64,000 nt of DNA, from positions 17,609 to 81,608 of the forward strand of contig MHJY01000010.1 of assembly GCA_001818235.1 (NCBI GenBank), in the 5' to 3' direction. A program made the translations under genes and the position numbers. This document shows positions 1-62,023 of this stretch, piece after piece; the first letter of the stretch is position 1; each line of letters opens with the position of its first letter. The notes beneath the pieces are model-generated. The model was not told the origin of the DNA and searched no databases. It saw only the letters and a program-made list of their open reading frames with translations. This DNA is from Candidatus Jacksonbacteria bacterium RIFOXYB2_FULL_44_15 (GTDB taxonomy: Bacteria > Patescibacteriota > Patescibacteriia > UBA9629).

Positions 1-221
1 TGGGAGAATGGTGAAAAATCAAATCCACCGTCGCGCTGACATTATCAACGCCTACAAACTGATGATGACTGTTGCAAACTGCAAAAGTCAGCCGTCGGTG
101 GAATCTTAAATAGTAAAAAAAATGGACAGAAAAAGGATACGTGAATGTTTTGGACAAACAAACACGTTTCCTTCTCCAAAATCATCTCTAATTCGACCAG
201 TGAGTCGAAGAACTATTGCAT

Positions 222-245
222 AGATTCCTGCTTTCGCGGGAATGA
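222..245 (+). repeat. Family-A oriented motif copy (GATTCC-tgctttcgcg-GGAATGAC) pointing at the downstream structured element
   Basis: Same 5'-GATYCC...GGRATGAC-3' architecture as the copies at 2.5, 11.9, 20.8, 24.9, 51.9 and 60.5 kb. Confidence 0.5.
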
Positions 246-52634: not shown

Positions 52635-53414
52635 TCAAACTTCGCCAGTTTGCCAAAAAGTATAAAATATACTCTTTAACATGGCAACAATATATTGATC
52701 TTCGATTAATATTGCAAGTGCGGCTTTAGGCTGCCAAATAATAACTTTATTAGAAAATAACTGAAAAGACGTAAGAAACGGCGTCTTAACATGGAGAATC
52801 CTGGTTTCACGCATTTCTTGAGAATCAGTCGATTTTAACTCGTTGGAATCTTTACTGGGCAAAAGTAAAGCTTTAATCGTAACGCCTTTTCTAATTCGTT
52901 GTTTTATCCATCGTCGCTCCTCTGCCCAAGAAATAAAGCCGATAAAATCCTTAACCGAGCCAAAAAATTCAGAAACATCCTTAACCTCATCAATAATCTG
53001 GTAAAAAAGTTTTAAAAATTGATCTCTACCCTCAATGACTTTAATCGAAGTCGGCAACGATCCTTGTTTAAATAACCCTAACAATTGCGGCATATTCTGA
53101 GTAACGCCTTGATCCAATCGTTCCAATAATTCACGCTTTTTTCGTAACAGCTCCAACATTTTGCATGGTGACTCAACCATGAATGACCGACTAAAACGCC
53201 GGCGTTTAGAAAAGTGCGCCAACCCACGAGACTCCAAACCAGTAATCACTTTATAGACATTTGGACGAGACACGTTTAAATGCTGTGCAATCTTAGAAAC
53301 ACTCGCCGGCCCGATAGCCAAAGACAAAGTATATAGATTAATTTCGTGCCTGGTAAGCCCAAGCTCCTTGAGGGAATCGTAAACAATGTTTTTCACTTCT
53401 TTTTGGCTTTCCAT
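52635..53414 (-). CDS. TrmB-family transcriptional regulator (paralog 2)
   Basis: N-terminal wHTH (HEINLYTLSLAIGPASVSKIAQHLNVSRPNVYKVITGLESRGL). It is divergent from the PLP decarboxylase gene. Confidence 0.65.
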   Translation of the reverse strand: MESQKEVKNIVYDSLKELGLTRHEINLYTLSLAIGPASVSKIAQHLNVSRPNVYKVITGLESRGLAHFSKRRRFSRSFMVESPCKMLELLRKKRELLERLDQGVTQNMPQLLGLFKQGSLPTSIKVIEGRDQFLKLFYQIIDEVKDVSEFFGSVKDFIGFISWAEERRWIKQRIRKGVTIKALLLPSKDSNELKSTDSQEMRETRILHVKTPFLTSFQLFSNKVIIWQPKAALAILIEDQYIVAMLKSIFYTFWQTGEV

Positions 53415-53488
53415 AAAGTAAATCTAAAATATTTGTATATTTATTTTATACTACTTAACAAATAATGTCAATTTTTAAAGTAAATTAC

Positions 53489-53518
53489 TTGACAATTGCG
53501 TATATTTAAGCTATAATT
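53489..53518 (+). promoter_or_regulatory. Sigma70-like promoter TTGACA-N18-TATAAT for the decarboxylase gene
   Basis: Consensus hexamers. An RBS ggaaggtga precedes the ATG at 53574. Confidence 0.45.
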
Positions 53519-53573
53519 ATTTTTAGATTACAATAATAACTCTTTGACAATTTTATATAGGAAGGTGATCCAG

Positions 53574-54779
53574 ATGACTACGCATTTAAAAATTGGACGA
53601 CTTGACGCCGATGAACTAGCTAAAAAACTCACAACGCCGCTTTATGTTTATGATGCAAGGCGGGTTGAAGAAAACTACCTAACAATTAATTCCGCGATTT
53701 TTTATGAGCCAAAGCAGATTCATTATGCGATCATGTGTAATAACAGGTTACAGATATTGAAAGTACTCTTAAATTTAGGAGCTGACATTCAAGTCAATTC
53801 TGTAAAAGAGTATCGCCTTGTAAAGTCAATCGGCTCCTCCAATGCGAAAATCAGCGTTACTACAACTAATATCAGCACTGACGATCTGTCGTTTTATGCG
53901 GAAAATCAAGCCCAGATAAATTTTGATTCTATAGAAGAGATTAGCTGTTATGGACAGTTAATCAAACAATCCAGCACTGTCATCAATCATACTATTGGAA
54001 TCAGAATATCTGTACCGATGGAAATAACTGACCAATCCGCGACCAATCAGCCACATCCGACAAAAGCAAGAGTGGGCATAAATAGCAAACAATTTGACCT
54101 CGTTAAAGAAGCAGCAAAAAAGTATAATCTAAAAATTAACGGAATCCATGGCTATATCGCATCTAATTTGATCGACCTAGTACCGTTTATCAAATTAGGC
54201 TCCTATTTAGTAGAGTGCGCCAAAAAATTTCCGGATTTAGAATATATTAACTTTGGCACTGGATTTGGAATAGATTTTGATTGGCTGGCTTATGGTCAAA
54301 TGGTAACGCCGTTAATGAGATCCATCTCCACTTTCTTTGGCCGCCCAATTCATCTTAAAATTGAACCTGGGCGTTCATTGGTCGGTGATGCCGGCATTTT
54401 GTTGACACGCGTCACCAATATCAAAGACATGGGCAATTGGACGCAAGTCGGTGTTGACGCCGGTTTTGGCGTTTTTGCCAGACCGTATATCTATGGTTGG
54501 CAAAAGGGACAAGGCGGCTACCATCCAGTGGTGGTCGCCAATAAGATTGACCAACCACCAAAAGGACTCTACACAATCTGCGGTAACTCGACCCTGCAGG
54601 GCGATTTTATCGCCGAAGATCGACTATTGCCGGAGATTGAAATTGGCGACTTAATTGCTATTCTGAATGCCGGTGCCTATGGCGCAGTGATGTTATCAGG
54701 TTTCCCAGGAATGAGACGTGCCGGTGAAGTCTTGATTTATGATGATACAATTGAGGTGATTAGTGAAACTGAACGCTAG
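53574..54779 (+). CDS. PLP-dependent decarboxylase, Orn/DAP/Arg decarboxylase (fold III, LysA-like) family
   Basis: N-terminal TIM-barrel region, EPGRSLVGDAG motif, and C-terminal ICGNS...GAYG. Start taken at the ATG at 53574 instead of the TTG in the ORF track. Confidence 0.7.
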   Translation: MTTHLKIGRLDADELAKKLTTPLYVYDARRVEENYLTINSAIFYEPKQIHYAIMCNNRLQILKVLLNLGADIQVNSVKEYRLVKSIGSSNAKISVTTTNISTDDLSFYAENQAQINFDSIEEISCYGQLIKQSSTVINHTIGIRISVPMEITDQSATNQPHPTKARVGINSKQFDLVKEAAKKYNLKINGIHGYIASNLIDLVPFIKLGSYLVECAKKFPDLEYINFGTGFGIDFDWLAYGQMVTPLMRSISTFFGRPIHLKIEPGRSLVGDAGILLTRVTNIKDMGNWTQVGVDAGFGVFARPYIYGWQKGQGGYHPVVVANKIDQPPKGLYTICGNSTLQGDFIAEDRLLPEIEIGDLIAILNAGAYGAVMLSGFPGMRRAGEVLIYDDTIEVISETER

Positions 54780-54931
54780 TCACCTCAAATTAACCCCCTA
54801 GGAGACTGAATATCCTAGGGTTTGTTTTTTTATAGACTGAAACCTGGTTATATAAAATAACCAGGTTTTGACTAGACAAGTTGACCAAACTATTTACGTC
54901 ATCTTAAAGGCTAATTCTACTTCTTCATTCC

Positions 54932-55711
54932 TTAATATCTTTTTGCCTCGGCCCAGGCCAGTTCGTATATTTTCTTCATCGCGTCGGCAATTTCGGCGCT
55001 TTCGATGATAATTCCCAACTTTTCGCGCCAAGAGGCAATCATCACTTTATTATCATAAATATTGATTTCAGGGGAGAAATAGAATTTATCGGCCGGGATA
55101 AGCGCTACTTCGCGTTTTTCTTCTTCATTATATTTAACTCTTTCTATTGCGGTTTCTGTTTGCGGAATAATCCCACGAATCGCGATCCCTTTTTTAGCTC
55201 GACGGGCATAATACTTGGGAAAATAATCCGGCAAAGCCTTGTGCATATCATCAACTGTGGCATAAGCGCGAATCGCTTCGTGAGAAGTAAGTGTATCTTC
55301 GTAAACTTCTACTAATCCGGCCTTGCCTTCATAAAATTTAACTTTTGGCCGATCGGAAATATTGTGAATTGATTTTAAGCGCGGCACTAAGTTTGCCGAT
55401 TTTTTTAATTGCAACTCATACTGCGCGATCTTGTCTTTTAAAAAGGTGGTTATGATATCCGGCGATTGGGCGACGTATTCTTCTTTCGGCTCTTTCCCGG
55501 AAATGCTGACCAGCCCCTTGCTTACCAGAAGATCAAGGATGTTGTAACCGGTCGTGCGATTTATCCCAGCTGACCTGGCAATCACGCTCACTGTTCCTCT
55601 TCCAAGCTCTAATAAAGCTAGATATACCTTAGTTTCTTTATCGCTAAAGCCTAAATCTGAAAGGGCGGATTGTAAATTTGAGTCAATATTTATCATAAAT
55701 TTATTATACAT
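54932..55711 (-). CDS. TrmB-family transcriptional regulator (paralog 3)
   Basis: TKVYLALLELGRGTVSVIARSAGINRTTGYNILDLLVSKGLV plus a TrmB C-terminal domain. It is divergent from a radical SAM gene. Confidence 0.75.
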   Translation of the reverse strand: MYNKFMINIDSNLQSALSDLGFSDKETKVYLALLELGRGTVSVIARSAGINRTTGYNILDLLVSKGLVSISGKEPKEEYVAQSPDIITTFLKDKIAQYELQLKKSANLVPRLKSIHNISDRPKVKFYEGKAGLVEVYEDTLTSHEAIRAYATVDDMHKALPDYFPKYYARRAKKGIAIRGIIPQTETAIERVKYNEEEKREVALIPADKFYFSPEINIYDNKVMIASWREKLGIIIESAEIADAMKKIYELAWAEAKRY

Positions 55712-55810
55712 CTGTTCTTATTTTGTGTCAATAAGTTTAAACAAAACATTATACAAGCTATTTTATGGCTAGTTTATGGCTATTTTGGCTATACATAATG
55801 CCAATACGTA

Positions 55811-55839
55811 TTGACAATATTATGAAGATGTAGTATAAT
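55811..55839 (+). promoter_or_regulatory. Consensus sigma70 promoter TTGACA-N17-TATAAT for the radical SAM gene
   Basis: Exact consensus hexamers with 17-bp spacing. An RBS aaggggat precedes the ATG at 55915. Confidence 0.5.
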
Positions 55840-55914
55840 GTGATAAGAAATAAAAAACGTGCTTTGTCAATTAAATAGTACTTTACTGCAATATAAAGAA
55901 AGGGGATTGATGTA

Positions 55915-57162
55915 ATGAAAACAATTAATATCGGTCGAAGTGATTCTTTCGCCATCTTAACAAACAACATACCGGTTATCTTCCCTGGCCAGTTTCCAAA
56001 GGGCTACCAGAACAATGTAAGATGGTGGGGGAACATCAGCAAAGAGGAGTTACACTCTACTTTACCGGATGGAACGGCGCGATTGCTGACGATGGACCTA
56101 GATATTGGCGATACTTGCGGTCTTGCATGTCCGCATTGTTTCCGTCGGGATCCTAGGTTTGACTCTGTCAGTAAGGGAAACGCTTTAACCCACGAGGAAA
56201 TCGTGGCCTATGTTAAAGAGGCGAAAGCGCTCGGATTAAAACAAGTTAAAATCCTAGGTCGGGGCGAACCATTCCAAAATACGCGATTCCTTGAATTTTT
56301 GGAAACAATGACAGACATGGGTATCGGAGTGGCCGTGTTCAGTAAAGGACACGTGTTGGGTTGCGATGCGCTAGCGAGCAAATATAATAGTCATCGCGGA
56401 ATAAATTCCAGTTGGGAGCTAGTAAAACGCCTAAAAGATTTAAAAGTCAGTATTCTGCTGGGATTTAATTCTTTTGATCGCGACACCCAAAATGCCTTTA
56501 CCGGCGTTGACAAGTTCTCTGAAACCGCTTTGCTCAAAAACTATGTTGACTTTAGAGACCAAGCTTTAATCAACTTAGTTAAAGCGGGGTTTAACGAATA
56601 TATCCCCGGCGAAGCAACTAGACTAGCGATGATCGCGGCCCCGGTAAAGCCAGAGAATATAGACGAAATATTTGGTCTATATACTTGGGCGAGGGTAAGG
56701 AATATTTACATGCTCACCTGTCCAACCACTATCAGTGGTAAAGGGCTTGATGAATTAGAGCGCGAAAAACAGCATGCAGACTACGTTTCTCAGCTCGAGG
56801 ATCTGTGGGCGCAGATTTACATCTGGGCGATCCAAAAAAATCTCATCTCTAGAGAAGCTTTTCTAGAAGATGGGGTATCCCTGTATCCCGGATGCCATGT
56901 CTGTAATCAGACAGCGGCTGGATTCTACCTAAATTTACCTGGGCGGATCAACATGTGCCCCGGAAGAGTAGGCGGAACGACCATTTTTACCCGTGATATC
57001 GGCGAAGAAGCATCTTTAAAGGATGTCTGGGTACGATCTTCCAACTATCAGAGAGCCAAATACGGTAAGCGATACAATTACCATTGTGTCGCTCGTGACG
57101 GCTTCTCGTTGCCTCAAAATTTCTATAAAAATATTGAGGCAAAAGTAATGAAGAGCATTTAA
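55915..57162 (+). CDS. Radical SAM enzyme with a C-terminal Cys-rich (SPASM/twitch-like) region
   Basis: CGLACPHC (CxxxCxxC), GRGEPF, and C-terminal CHVC...MCPG cysteines. Confidence 0.7.
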   Translation: MKTINIGRSDSFAILTNNIPVIFPGQFPKGYQNNVRWWGNISKEELHSTLPDGTARLLTMDLDIGDTCGLACPHCFRRDPRFDSVSKGNALTHEEIVAYVKEAKALGLKQVKILGRGEPFQNTRFLEFLETMTDMGIGVAVFSKGHVLGCDALASKYNSHRGINSSWELVKRLKDLKVSILLGFNSFDRDTQNAFTGVDKFSETALLKNYVDFRDQALINLVKAGFNEYIPGEATRLAMIAAPVKPENIDEIFGLYTWARVRNIYMLTCPTTISGKGLDELEREKQHADYVSQLEDLWAQIYIWAIQKNLISREAFLEDGVSLYPGCHVCNQTAAGFYLNLPGRINMCPGRVGGTTIFTRDIGEEASLKDVWVRSSNYQRAKYGKRYNYHCVARDGFSLPQNFYKNIEAKVMKSI

Positions 57163-57307
57163 AAATTGCTCAAAACCAAAAGCCGATCAAATATTGACGC
57201 ACTTAACTTGATCGGCTTCTTTTTTTCGTATTAATATCCGCAAGCTATCCCGCCTTCGTCCGTCGACAAGCTCGTGACTTCGGCGGGACAAGCGCTTGGG
57301 CTCCGCG

Positions 57308-57919
57308 TTACTTTTTAAGCACTATCATCCTCATTTTTTGCCCAAATTTTAATCTTTCTGCCGGATCGTCAAATGCGATTTCACTTGGTTCAAATTCTGC
57401 TGGATCAAAATCCTCATCTCCAACCCAGTCGACAACGTCCGCATATTCAGGATGTTTGGGATTTTTGAGAATATCTAATTTGTCATAGTATCCCCAAATG
57501 CCGCCGCTGTCTTCAAACGGACAAGCCATTTTACCGGCAATACAAACTGGGTATTTATTATTTTTAACTTTTAGCACTATTTTTTCTAAAATTACCAAGT
57601 GCTCCCAATTATCGCCGAAGTCGTAAGTATAGTTCATCTTTCCCAACTTTGGGAACCAACCTTTGATTTTTTCTTTCCAGCCAGCTAAAACTTCGGTCCA
57701 GTCATCATCAGTCGGGATGCCGATGTGTAGCTCTTTTCCTCTCGGACCTATGGTAGTAAATTCGTGCAAATGACTATCGCCCCAACCCATCGCTTCTTGA
57801 ATGGCCACGTGCAAGTCCCAGAAACTATAATTTTCCGGCACCTGAATTCTTCGCCAGATAGGCGGCTTGCAATCTTTCAGAGTGATCTTAAACTGATAAA
57901 TATTTTTATAATTTTTCAT
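57308..57919 (-). CDS. pRiA4b ORF-3-like (PRiA4_ORF3 family) protein
   Basis: IYQFKITLKDCKPPIWRRIQVP...FWDLHVAIQEAMGWGDSHLHEF...YDFGDNWEH signature blocks. Confidence 0.65.
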   Translation of the reverse strand: MKNYKNIYQFKITLKDCKPPIWRRIQVPENYSFWDLHVAIQEAMGWGDSHLHEFTTIGPRGKELHIGIPTDDDWTEVLAGWKEKIKGWFPKLGKMNYTYDFGDNWEHLVILEKIVLKVKNNKYPVCIAGKMACPFEDSGGIWGYYDKLDILKNPKHPEYADVVDWVGDEDFDPAEFEPSEIAFDDPAERLKFGQKMRMIVLKK

Positions 57920-57937
57920 AGGTATCCATTTATAACT

Positions 57938-58225
57938 CTACCTTCTTAACTTATAGCCATTCACCTGCTCCAGTAAACTAATAGTCGCCTGCACCGATGA
58001 GTTGACAGTGTTAATCAACTTAACTCGATCGCCAAATCTCTTATATAGTGGAGTTATAAATTCATCGCCCCAGGATGGTGTAAAAGAAACGACACCGTCG
58101 AAGTCGATTAGAATCTCTTCATTGTCGGTAGCCGTAACCAAAGTTGGGTTAAAAGCCGCCAAAGCTTCCTTGCCATCTTGACGCGAAGTTAAAATCTCGC
58201 CAAATTTTTTAATGTATATATGCAT
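57938..58225 (-). CDS. DUF4325 (STAS-like) domain protein
   Basis: 95 aa with ILIDFDGVVSFTPSWGDEF resembling the STAS-like DUF4325 core. It lies directly downstream of a GHKL-ATPase gene. Confidence 0.55.
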   Translation of the reverse strand: MHIYIKKFGEILTSRQDGKEALAAFNPTLVTATDNEEILIDFDGVVSFTPSWGDEFITPLYKRFGDRVKLINTVNSSVQATISLLEQVNGYKLRR

Positions 58226-58226
58226 A

Positions 58227-58949
58227 TTAAAATTTAATCAAAGCCAAACATCCTCGTAAATAAGTTTCCGAATTAATAATTTCAAGCGTTGCTTCATGTT
58301 CTTTCAGCCATAATTGCGCATTGCCGCTTTGAAAGAACAGCGACATTGGATTAGTAGTCACGACCTGTCGGACGAACTTTAATCCATTGCCGCGAGCCTC
58401 TGGCGACCGACCAGAAATAATTTCGGAAAAAGCCACCACTAACGCCTGTCTATCATTCTGCAATTCAGGCCTAATCCTTTTTAAAGTCTGCAATATTCCT
58501 TGGCCGCGATCAGCTAAAACAATATACCGCTTATTAATATCATAACCAAAAAAAGTTCCGAGGATATCCGGCCAGTTGCCTAAGTTATGATCAAACGAAT
58601 TATTGCCAATCTCGCCGGTAATCGCAACTATTAAAGGAACGACCTCGGCTAAAGCAGGTTGATTAGTAAGAGCGAGCGGCAATTTTGATAGTCGCGCTTT
58701 AAATATCATGCTGTCTGGACAATAATATTCTGACACTGGATCAACTGGATTATCTAGCATCCATTTCCAGGCAACTTTAAAAAGTGGACATAATAAAAAA
58801 TCAATATCTATGCGCCGATAATGTCGATGAGCACGTTGCCCTGATCTAATTGCTGATAAATGGCCGCTTTGATCCCAGCGGCGTAATGTTTGGACGCTTA
58901 CACCAAGAGCTTGCGCTGCTTGGCTGATTGTTAATGTACTTTTAGACAC
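58227..58949 (-). CDS. MerR-type HTH fused to a GHKL (histidine-kinase-like) ATPase domain
   Basis: LTISQAAQALGVSVQTLRRWDQSGHL (MerR HTH). N-box-like GEIGNNSFDHN, G1 LADRGQGI and G2 GNGLKF are as in RsbW-type anti-sigma kinases. Confidence 0.6.
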   Translation of the reverse strand: MSKSTLTISQAAQALGVSVQTLRRWDQSGHLSAIRSGQRAHRHYRRIDIDFLLCPLFKVAWKWMLDNPVDPVSEYYCPDSMIFKARLSKLPLALTNQPALAEVVPLIVAITGEIGNNSFDHNLGNWPDILGTFFGYDINKRYIVLADRGQGILQTLKRIRPELQNDRQALVVAFSEIISGRSPEARGNGLKFVRQVVTTNPMSLFFQSGNAQLWLKEHEATLEIINSETYLRGCLALIKF

Positions 58950-59072
58950 ATGTAAACCTATACAAACTTATCTTAAATTTAATGTAAATGTATAGTTTGT
59001 TAGTCAAATCTATACAAATTATAGCAAAAAGTGACAATTTATGCAAGCTTTCCCTCCACTTCGGTGGGCAGG

Positions 59073-59708
59073 CTACGTCCTTTTCCGCGATGGCAAGAAG
59101 AAAGCGGCAATAATCAATAGCCCGATAAAAATAAAGGCCAGGGGCAGGGGATTGATGATTTTGATAAGCTGGGTCGGAATCCATGCCCAGAGCACTGCCC
59201 CGATGGCAGTTCTGATTAAGGTGATAATTATATAATCAGATATTTTGATCTTGGTTAGCCCAAAAGCATAATTTGCCACGTCCAAGGGAATAATTGTGCG
59301 TAGCAATAACAACCGCCAGAAAGTACTCGGTTGATTAAGAACATATTTACCAATCAAACGATCGACAGTCTCGAGATTTACAAATTTTTTTATCCAATCC
59401 CGTCCATAATGATGGCTGATGTAAAAAACAATTCCGGCGCTTATATTCCAAGCGATAAAAAAATAAGTCGCCAAAGCCACCGGGCTCCAAACATAAGAGG
59501 CAAACGGCACCAAGGGCAAGGCGGAAAAAGGCGCCACCACCGTGGCAAAAATTACGTAAATGATAAATACTGCCGGCCCTAAAATTGTGTGCTGGTTAAT
59601 AAAGTAACGAAAATCTTCCAACGGCAACTCTAATCCGGCTAAAAATCCATACCCGACTGCCAAACAGGTTAAGATCACCAACAAAATAAATAATCTCTTT
59701 TTACTCAT
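59073..59708 (-). CDS. TVP38/TMEM64 (DedA-like) family membrane protein
   Basis: Multi-transmembrane protein with an internal SNARE-associated-like core (GPAVFIIYVIFATVVAPFSALPL). It overlaps the upstream TrmB gene by ATGA. Confidence 0.65.
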   Translation of the reverse strand: MSKKRLFILLVILTCLAVGYGFLAGLELPLEDFRYFINQHTILGPAVFIIYVIFATVVAPFSALPLVPFASYVWSPVALATYFFIAWNISAGIVFYISHHYGRDWIKKFVNLETVDRLIGKYVLNQPSTFWRLLLLRTIIPLDVANYAFGLTKIKISDYIIITLIRTAIGAVLWAWIPTQLIKIINPLPLAFIFIGLLIIAAFFLPSRKRT

Positions 59709-60433
59709 AGTTTATCCCATAACAATTTAAATTTTTGGCGCTCCATTTGGGCTAAATCCGAGCTTTGAATCACTACGCCGATTAATTCTTTTTCCGAGGA
59801 CAGGCAGGCGATTTTGTCCTGAAAAATAAACATTGAACTGGAGAAAAAATATTCTTGCGGCAGGTATTTGATTGTACGCAAAAACTTGGCTTCGTCTTGC
59901 TTTAATTTATTCGCACCCAGATCAGCGAAAACTAAAGCTGTGAATTTAATATTCTTTTCCATTCTCGCCGGAATGTAGTGGTTATAATCATATTCTGGAG
60001 TAACGATTTTGTAAATATCAACAATCGAGCCAAGGTATAGAATCTCGCTATTTTTGACCTCGAGCGTTTGCTCGACAATTGAAAGGCAGCCTTCTTTGCC
60101 CAGATAAAACCGAACTTCCGGCCGTTTTTCTTCTTTGCCTTTGATTAGCGCCGACAGCTGGGGCATAATTTGGAGTAACGCTTCTTGCCGTTCTTTTAAA
60201 AGCGACTGCAACCGCTCCGGCTCTTCGGCGATAAACTTTTTTGATTCTTTTGATTGATAATAACTTACGAGACCTTTCTGCATCAAAGACTCGAGGATTA
60301 CATAAACCGTGGTGCGTTTTATTTTTGATTTTTTGGCGATCTCCGGAATCTTGGCCGAGCCCAACTCCAAAGAAGCCAGATATACACGGGCTTCTTTTTC
60401 GGTTAAGCCAAGTTTTTGAAGAGTGGAGAGCAT
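59705..60433 (-). CDS. TrmB-family transcriptional regulator (paralog 4)
   Basis: EKEARVYLASLELGSAKIPEIAKKSKIKRTTVYVILESLMQKGLV plus a TrmB_C domain. Confidence 0.75.
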   Translation of the reverse strand: MLSTLQKLGLTEKEARVYLASLELGSAKIPEIAKKSKIKRTTVYVILESLMQKGLVSYYQSKESKKFIAEEPERLQSLLKERQEALLQIMPQLSALIKGKEEKRPEVRFYLGKEGCLSIVEQTLEVKNSEILYLGSIVDIYKIVTPEYDYNHYIPARMEKNIKFTALVFADLGANKLKQDEAKFLRTIKYLPQEYFFSSSMFIFQDKIACLSSEKELIGVVIQSSDLAQMERQKFKLLWDKL

Positions 60434-60472
60434 GGGTGGTTGGTTAGACTATGACATGATAGCCGATGGAAT

Positions 60473-60564
60473 TGTCATTCCGAGCGGACCCCGAGCAGGG
60501 GCGAGGGGGGAGTCGAGGAATCTCTCTGGATTAAGCAAGGGATCCCTCGGCAAGCTCGGGATGA
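60473..60564. repeat. Head-to-head pair of Family-A motif copies in the divergent intergenic region
   Basis: gtcattccgagcggaccccgagcaggggcgaggggggagtcgaggaatc (60473-60521, minus-oriented) and gatccctcggcaagctcgggatgac (60537-60564, plus-oriented). The second is the exact reverse complement of 2520-2544. Confidence 0.6.
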
Positions 60565-60691
60565 CAAATTGACGTTTTTTGCTTATATACAGACTGGCCA
60601 TTTTTTACAAATCTGTCGATAATTTTGTCAACTTGATTTTATTATATACTAAAGTAAAACAGCTGTCAAACTTTGCTATTTGCCAAAAGTA

Positions 60692-60720
60692 TTGACAAAT
60701 ATCTCAATCAATGTTATAAT
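60692..60720 (+). promoter_or_regulatory. Consensus sigma70 promoter TTGACA-N17-TATAAT
   Basis: Exact hexamers. An RBS aggag precedes the ATG at 60785. Confidence 0.5.
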
Positions 60721-60784
60721 GATTTTATTAATAATAAATGACATTGCTCTTTGAAAAAAATCTTATAAATATAGGAGAAAAATA

Positions 60785-62023
60785 ATGAGTAACGAATACA
60801 TCGTCAATATAGAGTTGCCCGGAATTCAGACAGAAATTAAAGAAGCTCGAAAAATATTTAGCGACTTCTACGAAAAATATTGTACTACGTTTGACCTGGC
60901 TGATGAAGCCAAAATCAAAATGGTGTACAAAGCCGCACAAATCATGGGCATTTTCGCAAGGGCAAAAGCAATTCGCCAACTCTTGTTTGGCCGCAACATA
61001 TCGCTGTATGGAGTGTGTTACTTAGGAACTAAATGCAATCAAAACTGCAAATTCTGTCCAATGGGGCAGGCCAACTGGAAAATGCACCTACATGGCAAAA
61101 CTTCAAGCGATAGGCTGATTACGCTATCGTTAGAAGAGGCGTCGGCTGATCTTGATGCCCTAGTTCAAATAGGACATCGCGAAATCTGCATTTTAGCCGG
61201 AGAAGCGATCGCTTGCGATCCCGGCAAAGTCGTCGAATACGCCCAACTCGCGGTCTATAAACCAGGCGTTCATGAAGTAATCCTGAATATGGGAGCGTAC
61301 ACGCAACGTACTTTCGAATTCATCAAAGAAACCATTGTGCTCCCAGCTGGAGTCAAACTCCAGCATCGCGTGTTTCAGGAGACATATGTCAAAACAGAGT
61401 ATGACTACTACATGGAGCGTGCCCCTCGCGAGCACGGTAGTAAAGCAGACTTTGACTTCCGCTACAATTCCCAAGTGGCTGCTCTCAAAGCTGGGTTCGA
61501 TGAAGTCGGTATCGGAGTCCTGTTTGGTCTAAGCCGCTATCCTTTAAAAGAAATAAAAGGTCTGCAACAGCACGCGGCTTATATCAAAAAGTATGGCGGA
61601 AAGTATCCTAAAAGATGCTGTCTGCCAATAGCTAACAATCCTGAACCGGATACAAATCCAGTTGATGTTAAATACCTAATCCCAGGTATGTCAACCGAAC
61701 AGATGATAACTGAGCTAATCTACGCTCTAGCCAGATTGGCCATGCCAACTGTTTCGACAGTCTCATCAGAGCGCGATAATCCAGGTACCCTGGAGCTTCT
61801 GGATCAATACGCGAACCACACCACCTTGTTTGTTCATCCGGCTCCAGGGGGGAACATTAAATCATTGGACGAACTCCATGGTGAAACATTCAGTCATGGC
61901 TACAAACCAGTAGCCCAAGCAGAAGTATTCCCACGCTACCCAAGGGAGGCGATCAAAAGCTGGCAGAAACGGGGATACAATATTCTGGGTTTTAACATTA
62001 CAAAGTATGACCTTTGCCCGTAA
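60785..62023 (+). CDS. Radical SAM enzyme, ThiH/HydG/CofGH/MqnCE-like branch
   Basis: FGRNISLYGVCYLGTKCNQNCKFCPMG (CxxxCxxC preceded by a conserved Gly/hydrophobic N-cap), with a TIM-barrel-like remainder. Confidence 0.7.
   Translation: MSNEYIVNIELPGIQTEIKEARKIFSDFYEKYCTTFDLADEAKIKMVYKAAQIMGIFARAKAIRQLLFGRNISLYGVCYLGTKCNQNCKFCPMGQANWKMHLHGKTSSDRLITLSLEEASADLDALVQIGHREICILAGEAIACDPGKVVEYAQLAVYKPGVHEVILNMGAYTQRTFEFIKETIVLPAGVKLQHRVFQETYVKTEYDYYMERAPREHGSKADFDFRYNSQVAALKAGFDEVGIGVLFGLSRYPLKEIKGLQQHAAYIKKYGGKYPKRCCLPIANNPEPDTNPVDVKYLIPGMSTEQMITELIYALARLAMPTVSTVSSERDNPGTLELLDQYANHTTLFVHPAPGGNIKSLDELHGETFSHGYKPVAQAEVFPRYPREAIKSWQKRGYNILGFNITKYDLCP

What the first reader, a model, noticed from the sequence alone, without database searches (positions are those of the whole stretch)
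57308..58949. MerR-HTH-GHKL ATPase plus DUF4325 (STAS-like) plus PRiA4_ORF3 triplet
A DNA-binding MerR domain fused to an RsbW-like GHKL ATPase is followed, with a 1-nt gap, by a small STAS-like DUF4325 protein and then a PRiA4_ORF3-family protein. The kinase/STAS pairing is the architecture of anti-sigma / anti-anti-sigma partner-switching modules. Here the kinase itself carries the DNA-binding domain, which implies a self-contained partner-switch transcription factor. PRiA4_ORF3 proteins are plasmid-associated and of unknown function. Their presence next to this module in a chromosomal biosynthetic-looking cluster is notable.
Basis: partly seen in the sequence, partly recalled or inferred. 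Interest (0 to 1): 0.5.

Follow-up and report, generated by a model that had tools for sequence, protein, structure and literature searches.

The report
Self-regulating kinase–STAS switch in CPR bacteria
A two-gene module widespread in small-genome CPR (Patescibacteria) bacteria pairs a DNA-binding protein kinase with a small substrate-like partner and appears to control its own promoter through a phased DNA repeat, while the third gene flagged with it is only a local passenger.

Summary
All three ORFs exist as described. The 240-aa protein (K) has a MerR/excisionase-type HTH, a helical linker and a small GHKL domain. Pfam misses the GHKL domain, but it is closest in fold to SpoIIAB/RsbW and homologous to the CapK kinase; all ATP-site motifs are invariant. 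The 95-aa DUF4325 protein (S) has a STAS fold, and Ser51 (99% conserved) sits where SpoIIAA and CapS are phosphorylated.

The unit is a doublet, not a triplet. S follows K in 79 of 80 genome loci; PRiA4_ORF3 follows in none and is linked only in this species.

I found a conserved operator: TGYATAGnTT direct repeats, mostly 21 bp apart, overlapping the operon's promoter and about 110-fold enriched there. K residue 20 predicts the variable operator base (Asp→C, Gln→T), and this held 10 of 10 times in an independent set. HTH-less K variants keep S but have no operator.

Best reading: an autoregulated kinase–substrate (partner-switch-like) module. It is a new architectural variant of the CapK/CapS and VapK/VapS systems published in 2026. 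Input signal, output beyond autoregulation, and phosphatase remain unknown.

The parts
59018..59046 (-). Probable promoter of the operon: TTGCAT (59046-59041), 17-nt spacer, TATAAT (59023-59018)
   Evidence: Read from the sequence. The -10 is a perfect match; the -35 matches TTGACA at only 3 of 6 positions, so the strict scan does not list it. It lies in the 123-nt gap after the upstream VTT/DedA gene.
59007..59016 (-). Operator copy O1 (TGTATAGATT), 1 nt after the -10, covering the expected transcription start
   Evidence: The motif family is defined.
58989..58998 (+). Operator copy O2 (TGTATAGTTT), inverted relative to the gene, which is atypical (only 3 of 181 upstream copies across loci are inverted)
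58955..58964 (-). Operator copy O3 (TGTATAGGTT), 6-15 nt before the GTG start and 52 nt (about 5 helical turns) after O1
   Evidence: direct-repeat family D17.
58227..58949 (-). K: HTH-linker-GHKL Ser-kinase-like protein, 240 aa. HTH residues 1-55 (58949-58785), with Gln20 at 58892-58890. Helical linker residues 56-100 (58784-58650), with invariant W63, C77, F83. GHKL residues 101-240 (58649-58230), with Asn117 at 58601-58599.
57938..58225 (-). S: single-domain STAS-fold protein (DUF4325), 95 aa; candidate phospho-acceptor Ser51 at 58075-58073
57308..57919 (-). PRiA4_ORF3-family gene: probably co-transcribed here (18-nt gap, no terminator between) but not part of the conserved module
   Evidence: (0 of 80 loci).
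57172..57226 (.). Hairpin (AAGCCGATCAA / TTGATCGGCTT, 17-nt loop) flanked by A- and T-runs, between the convergent PRiA4 and radical-SAM genes; likely a bidirectional terminator ending the transcription unit
   Evidence: Inverted repeat I4 and the sequence. The scan does not list it because its loop exceeds 8 nt.

Best explanation
The core is a two-gene, autoregulated kinase-substrate switch. K is a small GHKL serine-kinase of the anti-sigma-factor / CapK type with a MerR/excisionase-type HTH fused to its N-terminus. Through that HTH, K binds an array of TGYATAGnTT direct repeats phased about 21 bp apart. The array overlaps the -35, spacer and transcription start of its own promoter, so binding most likely represses the K-S operon and whatever is co-transcribed behind it (PRiA4_ORF3 in this genome). 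S is a bare STAS domain that docks on the GHKL domain as SpoIIAA does on SpoIIAB and is phosphorylated on Ser51. I infer that the S-bound versus S-free (or ATP versus ADP) state of K changes its oligomeric state or DNA binding, so the pair forms a feedback switch. Shown computationally: the folds, the catalytic motifs, the strict K-S linkage, the operator and the HTH-operator specificity code. Inferred: kinase activity on Ser51, repression rather than activation, and coupling between S binding and DNA binding. Unknown: the input signal (ssDNA, as for CapK, is a candidate) and any output beyond autoregulation.
Against: There is no biochemistry. Pfam HATPase and STAS models do not hit, and the S-CapS alignment is weak (probability 17.5%). 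No phosphatase or sigma-factor gene is linked, so how phosphorylated S would be reset is unexplained. HTH-less K-S pairs exist, and CapK without its HTH behaved like wild type, so DNA binding may be only autoregulatory and not the system's output. A symmetric SpoIIAB-like dimer does not obviously fit head-to-tail direct repeats. The covariation is not corrected for phylogeny. The window's middle operator copy is inverted, unlike nearly all others. A K-S complex model could not be computed here.
Confidence: 0.6

Rival explanations
1. It is a CapKS-like 'controller of the adjacent pathway'. The main job of K-S is to switch on the downstream cargo gene (PRiA4_ORF3 here) in response to DNA damage or ssDNA, as CapK/CapS do for CBASS, Bub and Thoeris operons.
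For: The GHKL domain is homologous to CapK. PRiA4_ORF3 lies 18 nt downstream with no intervening terminator. In 17 of 73 loci the +1 gene is within 14 nt on the same strand. A few +1 genes are defence-like, including one CD-NTase cyclase (E 7e-100), one RT/DRT, SoFic, PDC-S01 and nSTAND3. Conflict-system genes lie 8-10 kb away in the window.
Against: The +1 genes are mostly housekeeping and unrelated to each other (MreB, YchF, a tRNA synthetase, TatC, transaldolase). 29% are on the opposite strand, and 69% of -1 genes are also co-directional, so co-directionality is close to baseline. K lacks the CapK STAS domain that forms the ssDNA groove, and S lacks the wHTH that makes CapS the repressor.
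Confidence: 0.15
2. It is a classical anti-sigma / anti-anti-sigma pair. K sequesters an unlinked sigma factor (or another protein) and S releases it, while the HTH only autoregulates the operon.
For: The best structural matches are SpoIIAB-SpoIIAA and RsbW-RsbV. HTH-less K-S pairs show that the core works without DNA binding. Few operator pairs are found away from the operon.
Against: No sigma-factor or PP2C gene is conserved next to the pair in 80 loci or in the window. The family is sequence-distinct from the SpoIIAB/RsbW families: no HATPase_c_2 hit and only 301 representatives, with no overlap into generic kinases.
Confidence: 0.12
3. The GHKL domain is a regulatory ATPase clamp rather than a kinase. 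S is a non-phosphorylated allosteric partner, as the STAS protein MlaB is for the MlaF ATPase, and it tunes ATP-dependent dimerisation and DNA binding of K.
Against: Ser51 is 99% conserved at exactly the phospho-acceptor position of CapS and SpoIIAA. The closest sequence relative, CapK, is an experimentally shown kinase (PMC13373217).
Confidence: 0.08
4. It is a toxin-antitoxin or abortive-infection-like selfish module, like VapKSC without VapC, in which one partner is toxic when the other is lost.
For: It is an autoregulated two-gene cassette in variable neighbourhoods. Some genomes carry two copies (L043; L024 and L038 come from one MAG). DUF4325 proteins pair with PIN toxins elsewhere (PMC5499597; VapS in PMC13373217).
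Against: No toxin domain is present and PADLOC gives no hits for S or the GHKL part. The module is absent from reference plasmids, has only one hit among 2.9 million viral contigs, and no viral protein shares its architecture. Sequence and length conservation are unusually high across CPR lineages (median 54% identity).
Confidence: 0.05

Closest known systems
CapK / CapS (Chambers et al., EMBO J 2026, PMC13373217)
   Same: An adjacent, co-directional gene pair: a GHKL anti-sigma-type Ser kinase with an N-terminal HTH, followed by a STAS protein with a conserved Ser on helix alpha2. The GHKL domains are homologous (hhalign 90%, E 1.5e-6; shared E-x3-N-x2-DH, D-x-G-x-GI-x2-TLKR and ARG-x-GLK motifs). 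Ser51 aligns with the phosphorylated CapS S54. The operon is autoregulated.
   Different: CapK is a 368-aa HTH-STAS-GHKL protein; K is 240 aa and has no internal STAS domain, which is the part that forms the ssDNA groove with W68. CapS carries the DNA-binding wHTH and is the repressor, binding palindromes; S is a bare 95-aa STAS domain. Here the only DNA-binding domain is on the kinase, and the sites are phased direct repeats. CapKS sit upstream of immune operons in 348 of 443 cases; this pair has no fixed cargo. CapKS were collected by BLAST searches of IMG starting from Bub immune operons; this family is overwhelmingly CPR.
VapK / VapS / VapC (same paper; VapS-VapC structure PDB 9Z7O)
   Same: VapS is the best, though weak, PDB sequence match of the DUF4325 profile (E 0.1). 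It is a small STAS protein phosphorylated by a CapK-like kinase. DUF4325 genes were earlier noted as coupled to PIN.4 VapC-like genes (PMC5499597).
   Different: No PIN/VapC toxin gene accompanies the pair. VapS has a C-terminal inhibitory helix that S lacks. VapK is STAS-GHKL without an HTH.
SpoIIAB-SpoIIAA and RsbW-RsbV partner-switching modules
   Different: The gene order is reversed (kinase first). No sigma-factor gene and no PP2C phosphatase are linked. The kinase carries an HTH. The Pfam HATPase_c_2 and STAS models are not matched.
MerR / excisionase (HTH_17) / BldC-type DNA-binding domains
   Same: The N-terminal 55 residues hit MerR, MerR_1 and HTH_17, TIGR01764 excisionase above its cut-off, and the PDB entries 6ama/6amk, 3qao, BmrR and TipA. 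From my own knowledge, not tested here: 6ama/6amk are BldC-DNA complexes, and BldC, which lacks the MerR dimerisation helix, binds direct repeats head-to-tail. That would fit the repeat geometry seen here.
   Different: There is no MerR coiled-coil or effector domain. The promoter spacer is 17 nt rather than the 19-20 nt of MerR-activated promoters. The operator is a direct-repeat array rather than a dyad.

Membership tests
Anti-sigma Ser-kinase / anti-anti-sigma partner switch (SpoIIAB-SpoIIAA, RsbW-RsbV) | Small GHKL kinase with N, G1 and G2 boxes | tested here: met
Anti-sigma Ser-kinase / anti-anti-sigma partner switch (SpoIIAB-SpoIIAA, RsbW-RsbV) | STAS-fold antagonist with a phosphorylatable Ser/Thr at the N-terminus of helix alpha2 | tested here: met
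Anti-sigma Ser-kinase / anti-anti-sigma partner switch (SpoIIAB-SpoIIAA, RsbW-RsbV) | A cognate sigma factor that the kinase sequesters, usually encoded in the same operon | tested here: not met
   No conserved third gene in 80 loci; no sigma-factor family among the top families reported for the +1 genes or among the window neighbours scanned. An unlinked sigma factor cannot be excluded.
Anti-sigma Ser-kinase / anti-anti-sigma partner switch (SpoIIAB-SpoIIAA, RsbW-RsbV) | A PP2C phosphatase (SpoIIE, RsbU/P) that recycles the phosphorylated antagonist | tested here: not met
   None is linked in 80 loci. Presence elsewhere in the genome is not testable with these tools.
Anti-sigma Ser-kinase / anti-anti-sigma partner switch (SpoIIAB-SpoIIAA, RsbW-RsbV) | Actual phosphotransfer and mutually exclusive partner binding | not testable with these tools
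   Needs biochemistry or a complex model; concatenated inputs are not accepted by the structure tool.
CapK/CapS | Kinase with HTH-STAS-GHKL three-domain architecture | tested here: not met
   K is 240 aa. Residues 56-100 are short helices, too short for a STAS domain. hhalign aligns only K 103-220 with CapK 204-340.
CapK/CapS | Substrate is a STAS-wHTH DNA-binding repressor | tested here: not met
   S is a 95-aa single STAS domain; across homologues the median length is 96 aa.
CapK/CapS | GHKL domain homologous to CapK, including the active-site Asn | tested here: met
   hhalign probability 90.2%, E 1.5e-6, with N117 aligned to N218.
CapK/CapS | Encoded directly upstream of an immune operon | tested here: not met
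   The +1 genes are heterogeneous and mostly housekeeping; only a handful are defence-like.
CapK/CapS | Kinase activated by ssDNA | not testable with these tools
   The invariant W63 in the linker is a candidate contact, but this is pure speculation.
VapKSC toxin-antitoxin | An adjacent VapC-like PIN toxin gene, and a C-terminal inhibitory helix on the STAS protein | tested here: not met
   No PIN family among the neighbours. S ends right after the STAS fold.
MerR-family transcription factor | N-terminal MerR-type HTH | tested here: met
   PF00376 E 4.2e-9 and PF13411 E 1.6e-8.
MerR-family transcription factor | C-terminal coiled-coil dimerisation and effector domain; dyad operator inside a 19-20 bp promoter spacer | tested here: not met
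   The C-terminal part is a GHKL domain. The operator consists of direct repeats (178 same-orientation versus 3 inverted). The spacer in the window is 17 nt.
DUF4325 (PF14213) | Match above the Pfam gathering score | tested here: met
   33.2 bits against a cut-off of 23.
PRiA4_ORF3 (PF07929), as a claimed third component | Conserved linkage to the K-S pair | tested here: not met
   0 of 80 loci. It is present only in near-identical strains and absent next to the closest other S homologue.

The most novel reading that the evidence does not exclude
K-S is a lineage-wide stress sensor and regulator of CPR bacteria, in which a DNA-bound serine kinase is switched by its own STAS substrate. It may respond to ssDNA or DNA damage like its homologue CapK, and so act as an SOS-like switch in organisms with very few regulators. 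Its regulon would extend beyond its own promoter; phased operator pairs are seen in front of unrelated genes in L060, L075, L145 and about a dozen metagenome contigs. The Asp/Gln/Asn/Thr-20 code would then be a simple, re-programmable recognition rule for this HTH class, and would also explain the so far function-less HTH of CapK.
Probability: 0.15. Interest if true: 0.8.

Novelty: new variant of a known kind. Interest (0 to 1): 0.55.

Why it matters
CPR/Patescibacteria have very small genomes and almost no characterised regulation. This pair occurs in at least 545 species-level genomes, with high sequence conservation across CPR lineages (median 54% pairwise identity). This work supplies a concrete, testable operator (TGYATAGnTT, 21-bp phasing) and a one-residue specificity rule. 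That makes a regulatory circuit in uncultivated bacteria directly testable in vitro or in E. coli. It also extends the newly described CapK/CapS-VapK/VapS kinase-STAS family to a minimal architecture in which the kinase, not the substrate, carries the DNA-binding domain. This suggests a role, autoregulation, for the unexplained HTH of CapK. Finally, it removes a false lead: PRiA4_ORF3 is not part of the system.

Tried and rejected
- Pfam, NCBIfam and PADLOC on K gave only HTH hits, including PADLOC 'mad1', which reflects HTH similarity only. There was no HATPase hit, and no PADLOC hit for S or PRiA4.
- PDB sequence searches found only MerR-type HTHs for K and a weak VapS hit for S.
- PRiA4_ORF3 as a third component is rejected: 0 of 80 loci.
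- No conserved third gene of any kind was found by all-against-all clustering of neighbours.
- Mobile-element carriage is not supported: no full-length plasmid match, one viral contig only, and no viral protein with the two-domain architecture.
- The lone operator-like site at window 217-226 has no phased partner, and the motif count outside the promoter fits chance.
- The metagenome scan used a pattern whose first half was only a partial motif, so most of the 120 hits are chance matches with one full core. It could not settle the regulon.
- The afdb50 fold library was unavailable.
- The 'WKW' in the window's linker resembles CapK 'EWKWY', but only W63 is conserved in the family and hhalign does not align this region, so I treat it as coincidence.

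Full report
**Observation.** The three minus-strand ORFs are present exactly as described: K at 58227-58949 (240 aa), S at 57938-58225 (95 aa) and a third gene at 57308-57919 (203 aa). The gaps between them are 1 nt and 18 nt. K is 100% identical to a protein of Parcubacteria group bacterium GW2011_GWA2_42_28, so the window comes from a CPR/Patescibacteria genome. Pfam confirms MerR/HTH_17 on K residues 6-50, DUF4325 for S and PRiA4_ORF3 for the third protein. No profile library detects a GHKL domain in K, so that part of the claim needed separate proof.

**K is an HTH-GHKL protein of the anti-sigma-kinase type.**
- An alignment of 35 homologues shows invariant E113-x3-N117 (N box), D147-x-G-x-G151 (G1) and G187-x-G189-L (G2). 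These are 80/80 across genome loci.
- The AlphaFold model (pLDDT 87.5) has an N-terminal HTH, short helices in residues 55-100 and an alpha/beta domain in residues 100-240, with a disordered ATP-lid.
- A full-library phmmer search with residues 57-240 finds only 301 representatives at the 50% identity level. The family is therefore compact and sequence-distinct from generic histidine kinases.

**The unit is a doublet, not a triplet.**
- In 80 species-representative genomes carrying K, out of at least 545 found, S lies immediately downstream on the same strand in 79. The exception is a contig that ends at the K stop codon.
- PRiA4_ORF3 occurs in none of the 80.
- Intergenic gaps between K and S are mostly 1-30 nt.
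- No other gene is conserved nearby.
- K and S divergence is correlated, r = 0.75.
- K-S-PRiA4 recurs only in near-identical strains. The next-closest S homologue has a different neighbour.
- PRiA4_ORF3 matches only PDB 2i1s, a hypothetical protein. It is known as a passenger gene of ISAzba1-group transposons (PMC3942029).
- In this genome it is probably co-transcribed: the gap is 18 nt, and a hairpin at 57172-57226 follows it.

**A conserved operator.** The window's 123-nt upstream gap holds TTGCAT-17 nt-TATAAT, followed by three TGTATAG copies. Across loci, the core TG[CT]ATAG (consensus wwTGYATAGnTTt) behaves as follows:
- It occurs 178 times in the gene's orientation and 3 times inverted within 200 nt upstream of K.
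- 74 of 79 loci have at least one copy and 68 have at least two.
- Its density is 11.5 per kb upstream against 0.10 per kb elsewhere in the same loci.
- Spacing peaks at 21 nt (53 cases), with the rest near 10, 20, 31, 42 and 53 nt, which places the copies on one face of the helix.
- Relative to predicted promoters, copies cluster abutting the -35, inside the -35 or spacer, over the start site, and 21 nt further downstream. This layout points to promoter occlusion, that is, autorepression.

**The kinase's own HTH reads the operator.**
- Residue 20, at the start of the recognition helix (VS-x-X-TLRRWD), predicts the variable operator base. Asp goes with TGCATAG in 37 of 37 loci and Gln with TGTATAG in 21 of 23. 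Met and Thr go mostly with T, and Asn with G-containing variants.
- The mutual information is 1.17 bits, against at most 0.69 for any other position in the protein, and 0 of 500 permutations reached it.
- In independent metagenome contigs the rule held 10 of 10 times.
- A Thr20 protein on the only viral-contig hit carries two TGAGTAGGTT copies, also 21 nt apart.
- The window's K has Gln20 and TGTATAG sites.
- As a natural control, a subgroup of K proteins of about 190-200 aa lacks the HTH. These still have S immediately downstream but have no operator copy anywhere in their loci.

**Relation to known systems.** A 2026 paper (PMC13373217) describes two related systems.
- CapK (HTH-STAS-GHKL) phosphorylates Ser54 of CapS (STAS-wHTH repressor) when activated by ssDNA. 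This de-represses adjacent immune operons.
- In VapKSC, a CapK-like kinase phosphorylates the STAS antitoxin VapS of a PIN toxin.

Using the CapK and CapS sequences from that paper's source data, hhalign links K residues 103-220 to CapK 204-340 (probability 90%, E 1.5e-6). N117 aligns with the catalytic N218. The weak S-CapS alignment places Ser51 on Ser54. VapS is the best PDB sequence match of the DUF4325 profile (E 0.1).

K and S are therefore relatives of this family, but they fail its defining architecture. K has no internal STAS domain, S has no wHTH or C-terminal helix, there is no PIN gene, and there is no consistent immune cargo. The +1 genes are mostly housekeeping, with a few defence-like exceptions such as one CD-NTase.

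**Mechanism.** I commit to an autoregulated kinase-substrate switch. K binds the phased repeats over its own promoter. S docks on the GHKL domain and is phosphorylated at Ser51. The S-bound or nucleotide state of K feeds back on its DNA binding.
- Computationally shown: the folds, the catalytic motifs, the K-S linkage, the operator and the HTH-operator specificity code.
- Inferred: kinase activity on Ser51, the sign of regulation, and coupling between S binding and DNA binding.
- Open: the input signal, any phosphatase, and the real output.

HTH-less pairs, and the wild-type behaviour of CapK lacking its HTH, warn that DNA binding may serve only autoregulation. Hints of further targets exist but are unresolved:
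- phased operator pairs upstream of a DUF4143 ATPase gene (L060) and of an NTase/HEPN pair (L075);
- a pair upstream of a lone S gene (L176);
- a pair upstream of an HNH-like ORF (L145);
- about a dozen other metagenome contigs, against about three expected by chance.

**Verdict.** This is a new architectural variant of a recently described kind. It is widespread in CPR bacteria and now has a testable operator and recognition rule.

Noticed in passing
window 59043-59067 and 57240-57286 (minus strand): A GC-rich hairpin-like element (CCNCCGAAGT ... GGGAWAGCTTGC) flanks the K-S-PRiA4 unit on both sides in the same orientation. Both sub-motifs occur only at these two places in the 64 kb window. 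It could mark cassette boundaries, or it could simply be a pair of post-gene hairpins. The motifs were defined after seeing the two copies, so their significance is overstated.
   Followed up: partly
window 44908-52070: Between tRNA-Gln (44908-44981) and tRNA-Val (51994-52070) lie an AEP-TOTE conflict-system primase fused to a ResIII/DEAD helicase (47132-49291, E 2e-77), a Bles03-like protein (49293-49718) and a FUR-like wHTH plus Fic/DOC protein (49788-50876). This may be a small conflict or defence island.
   Followed up: partly
window 52635-62023: Three paralogous TrmB-family regulators of about 240-260 aa (52635-53414, 54932-55711, 59705-60433) are interleaved with two divergent radical-SAM genes (55915-57162, 60785-62023), a PLP Orn/DAP/Arg-type decarboxylase (53544-54779), a NUDIX gene and a VTT/DedA gene. 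This is the 'biosynthetic-looking' context, and it is unrelated to K-S in other genomes.
   Followed up: no
L082 4280-5152; L084 891-1765; proteins P0251, P0262, P0266, P0272, P0280, P0328: A subfamily of K proteins of about 190-200 aa starts at the linker and lacks the HTH. It is still followed directly by a DUF4325 gene, and its loci contain no operator motif. In L082 it sits among def, fmt, rpsP and trmD.
   Followed up: partly
L109 (whole 1.4-kb contig), L094 around 2374, L138 around 223, L121 around 1731: Some metagenome contigs carry tandem arrays of the operator motif: at least 9 TGCATAG copies at a period of about 11 nt in L109, 5 copies at 10-11 nt in L094, and 3 copies at 21 nt in L138. 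No K gene is visible on these short contigs. They could be decoy or 'sponge' arrays, iterons, or unrelated repeats.
   Followed up: no
L176 6971-7277: An operator pair (TGCATAGATT and TGCATAGTTT, 21 nt apart) lies directly upstream of a stand-alone S gene, with no K gene in the locus held for this contig. This looks like a split arrangement in which S alone is under operator control.
   Followed up: no
L060 894-923; L075 709-739; L145 270-297: Phased operator pairs occur away from K: upstream of an AAA/DUF4143-type ATPase gene (L060), upstream of an NTase/HEPN pair that precedes K-S (L075), and 8 nt upstream of a 158-aa HNH-like ORF (L145). These are candidate extra regulon members.
   Followed up: partly
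L043 1943-3094 and 6940-8091; L024 and L038: Some genomes carry two K-S copies. L043 has two copies exactly 4997 nt apart with identical ORF sizes, which may be a tandem duplication or an assembly repeat. L024 and L038 are separate contigs of one MAG.
   Followed up: no
alignment A3 (+1 genes of L001-L080): One gene directly downstream of a K-S pair is a CBASS-type CD-NTase cyclase (PADLOC E 6.7e-100). Others match RT/DRT, SoFic, PDC-S01, nSTAND3 and Cas4 models. This CapKS-like arrangement occurs in only a small minority of loci. I did not determine which loci.
   Followed up: no
L008, L012, L023, L040, L068, L072, L073, L078: Eight of the 80 genome loci come from MAGs labelled as non-CPR (Methylomirabilis, 'uncultured Gammaproteobacteria', an archaeon, Woesearchaeota), with K 52-56% identical to the window's K. 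These could be horizontal transfer or binning and labelling errors.
   Followed up: no
window 217-226: A single operator-like TGCATAGATT sits far from the operon with no phased partner. It fits the chance expectation of 0.9 per window.
   Followed up: yes
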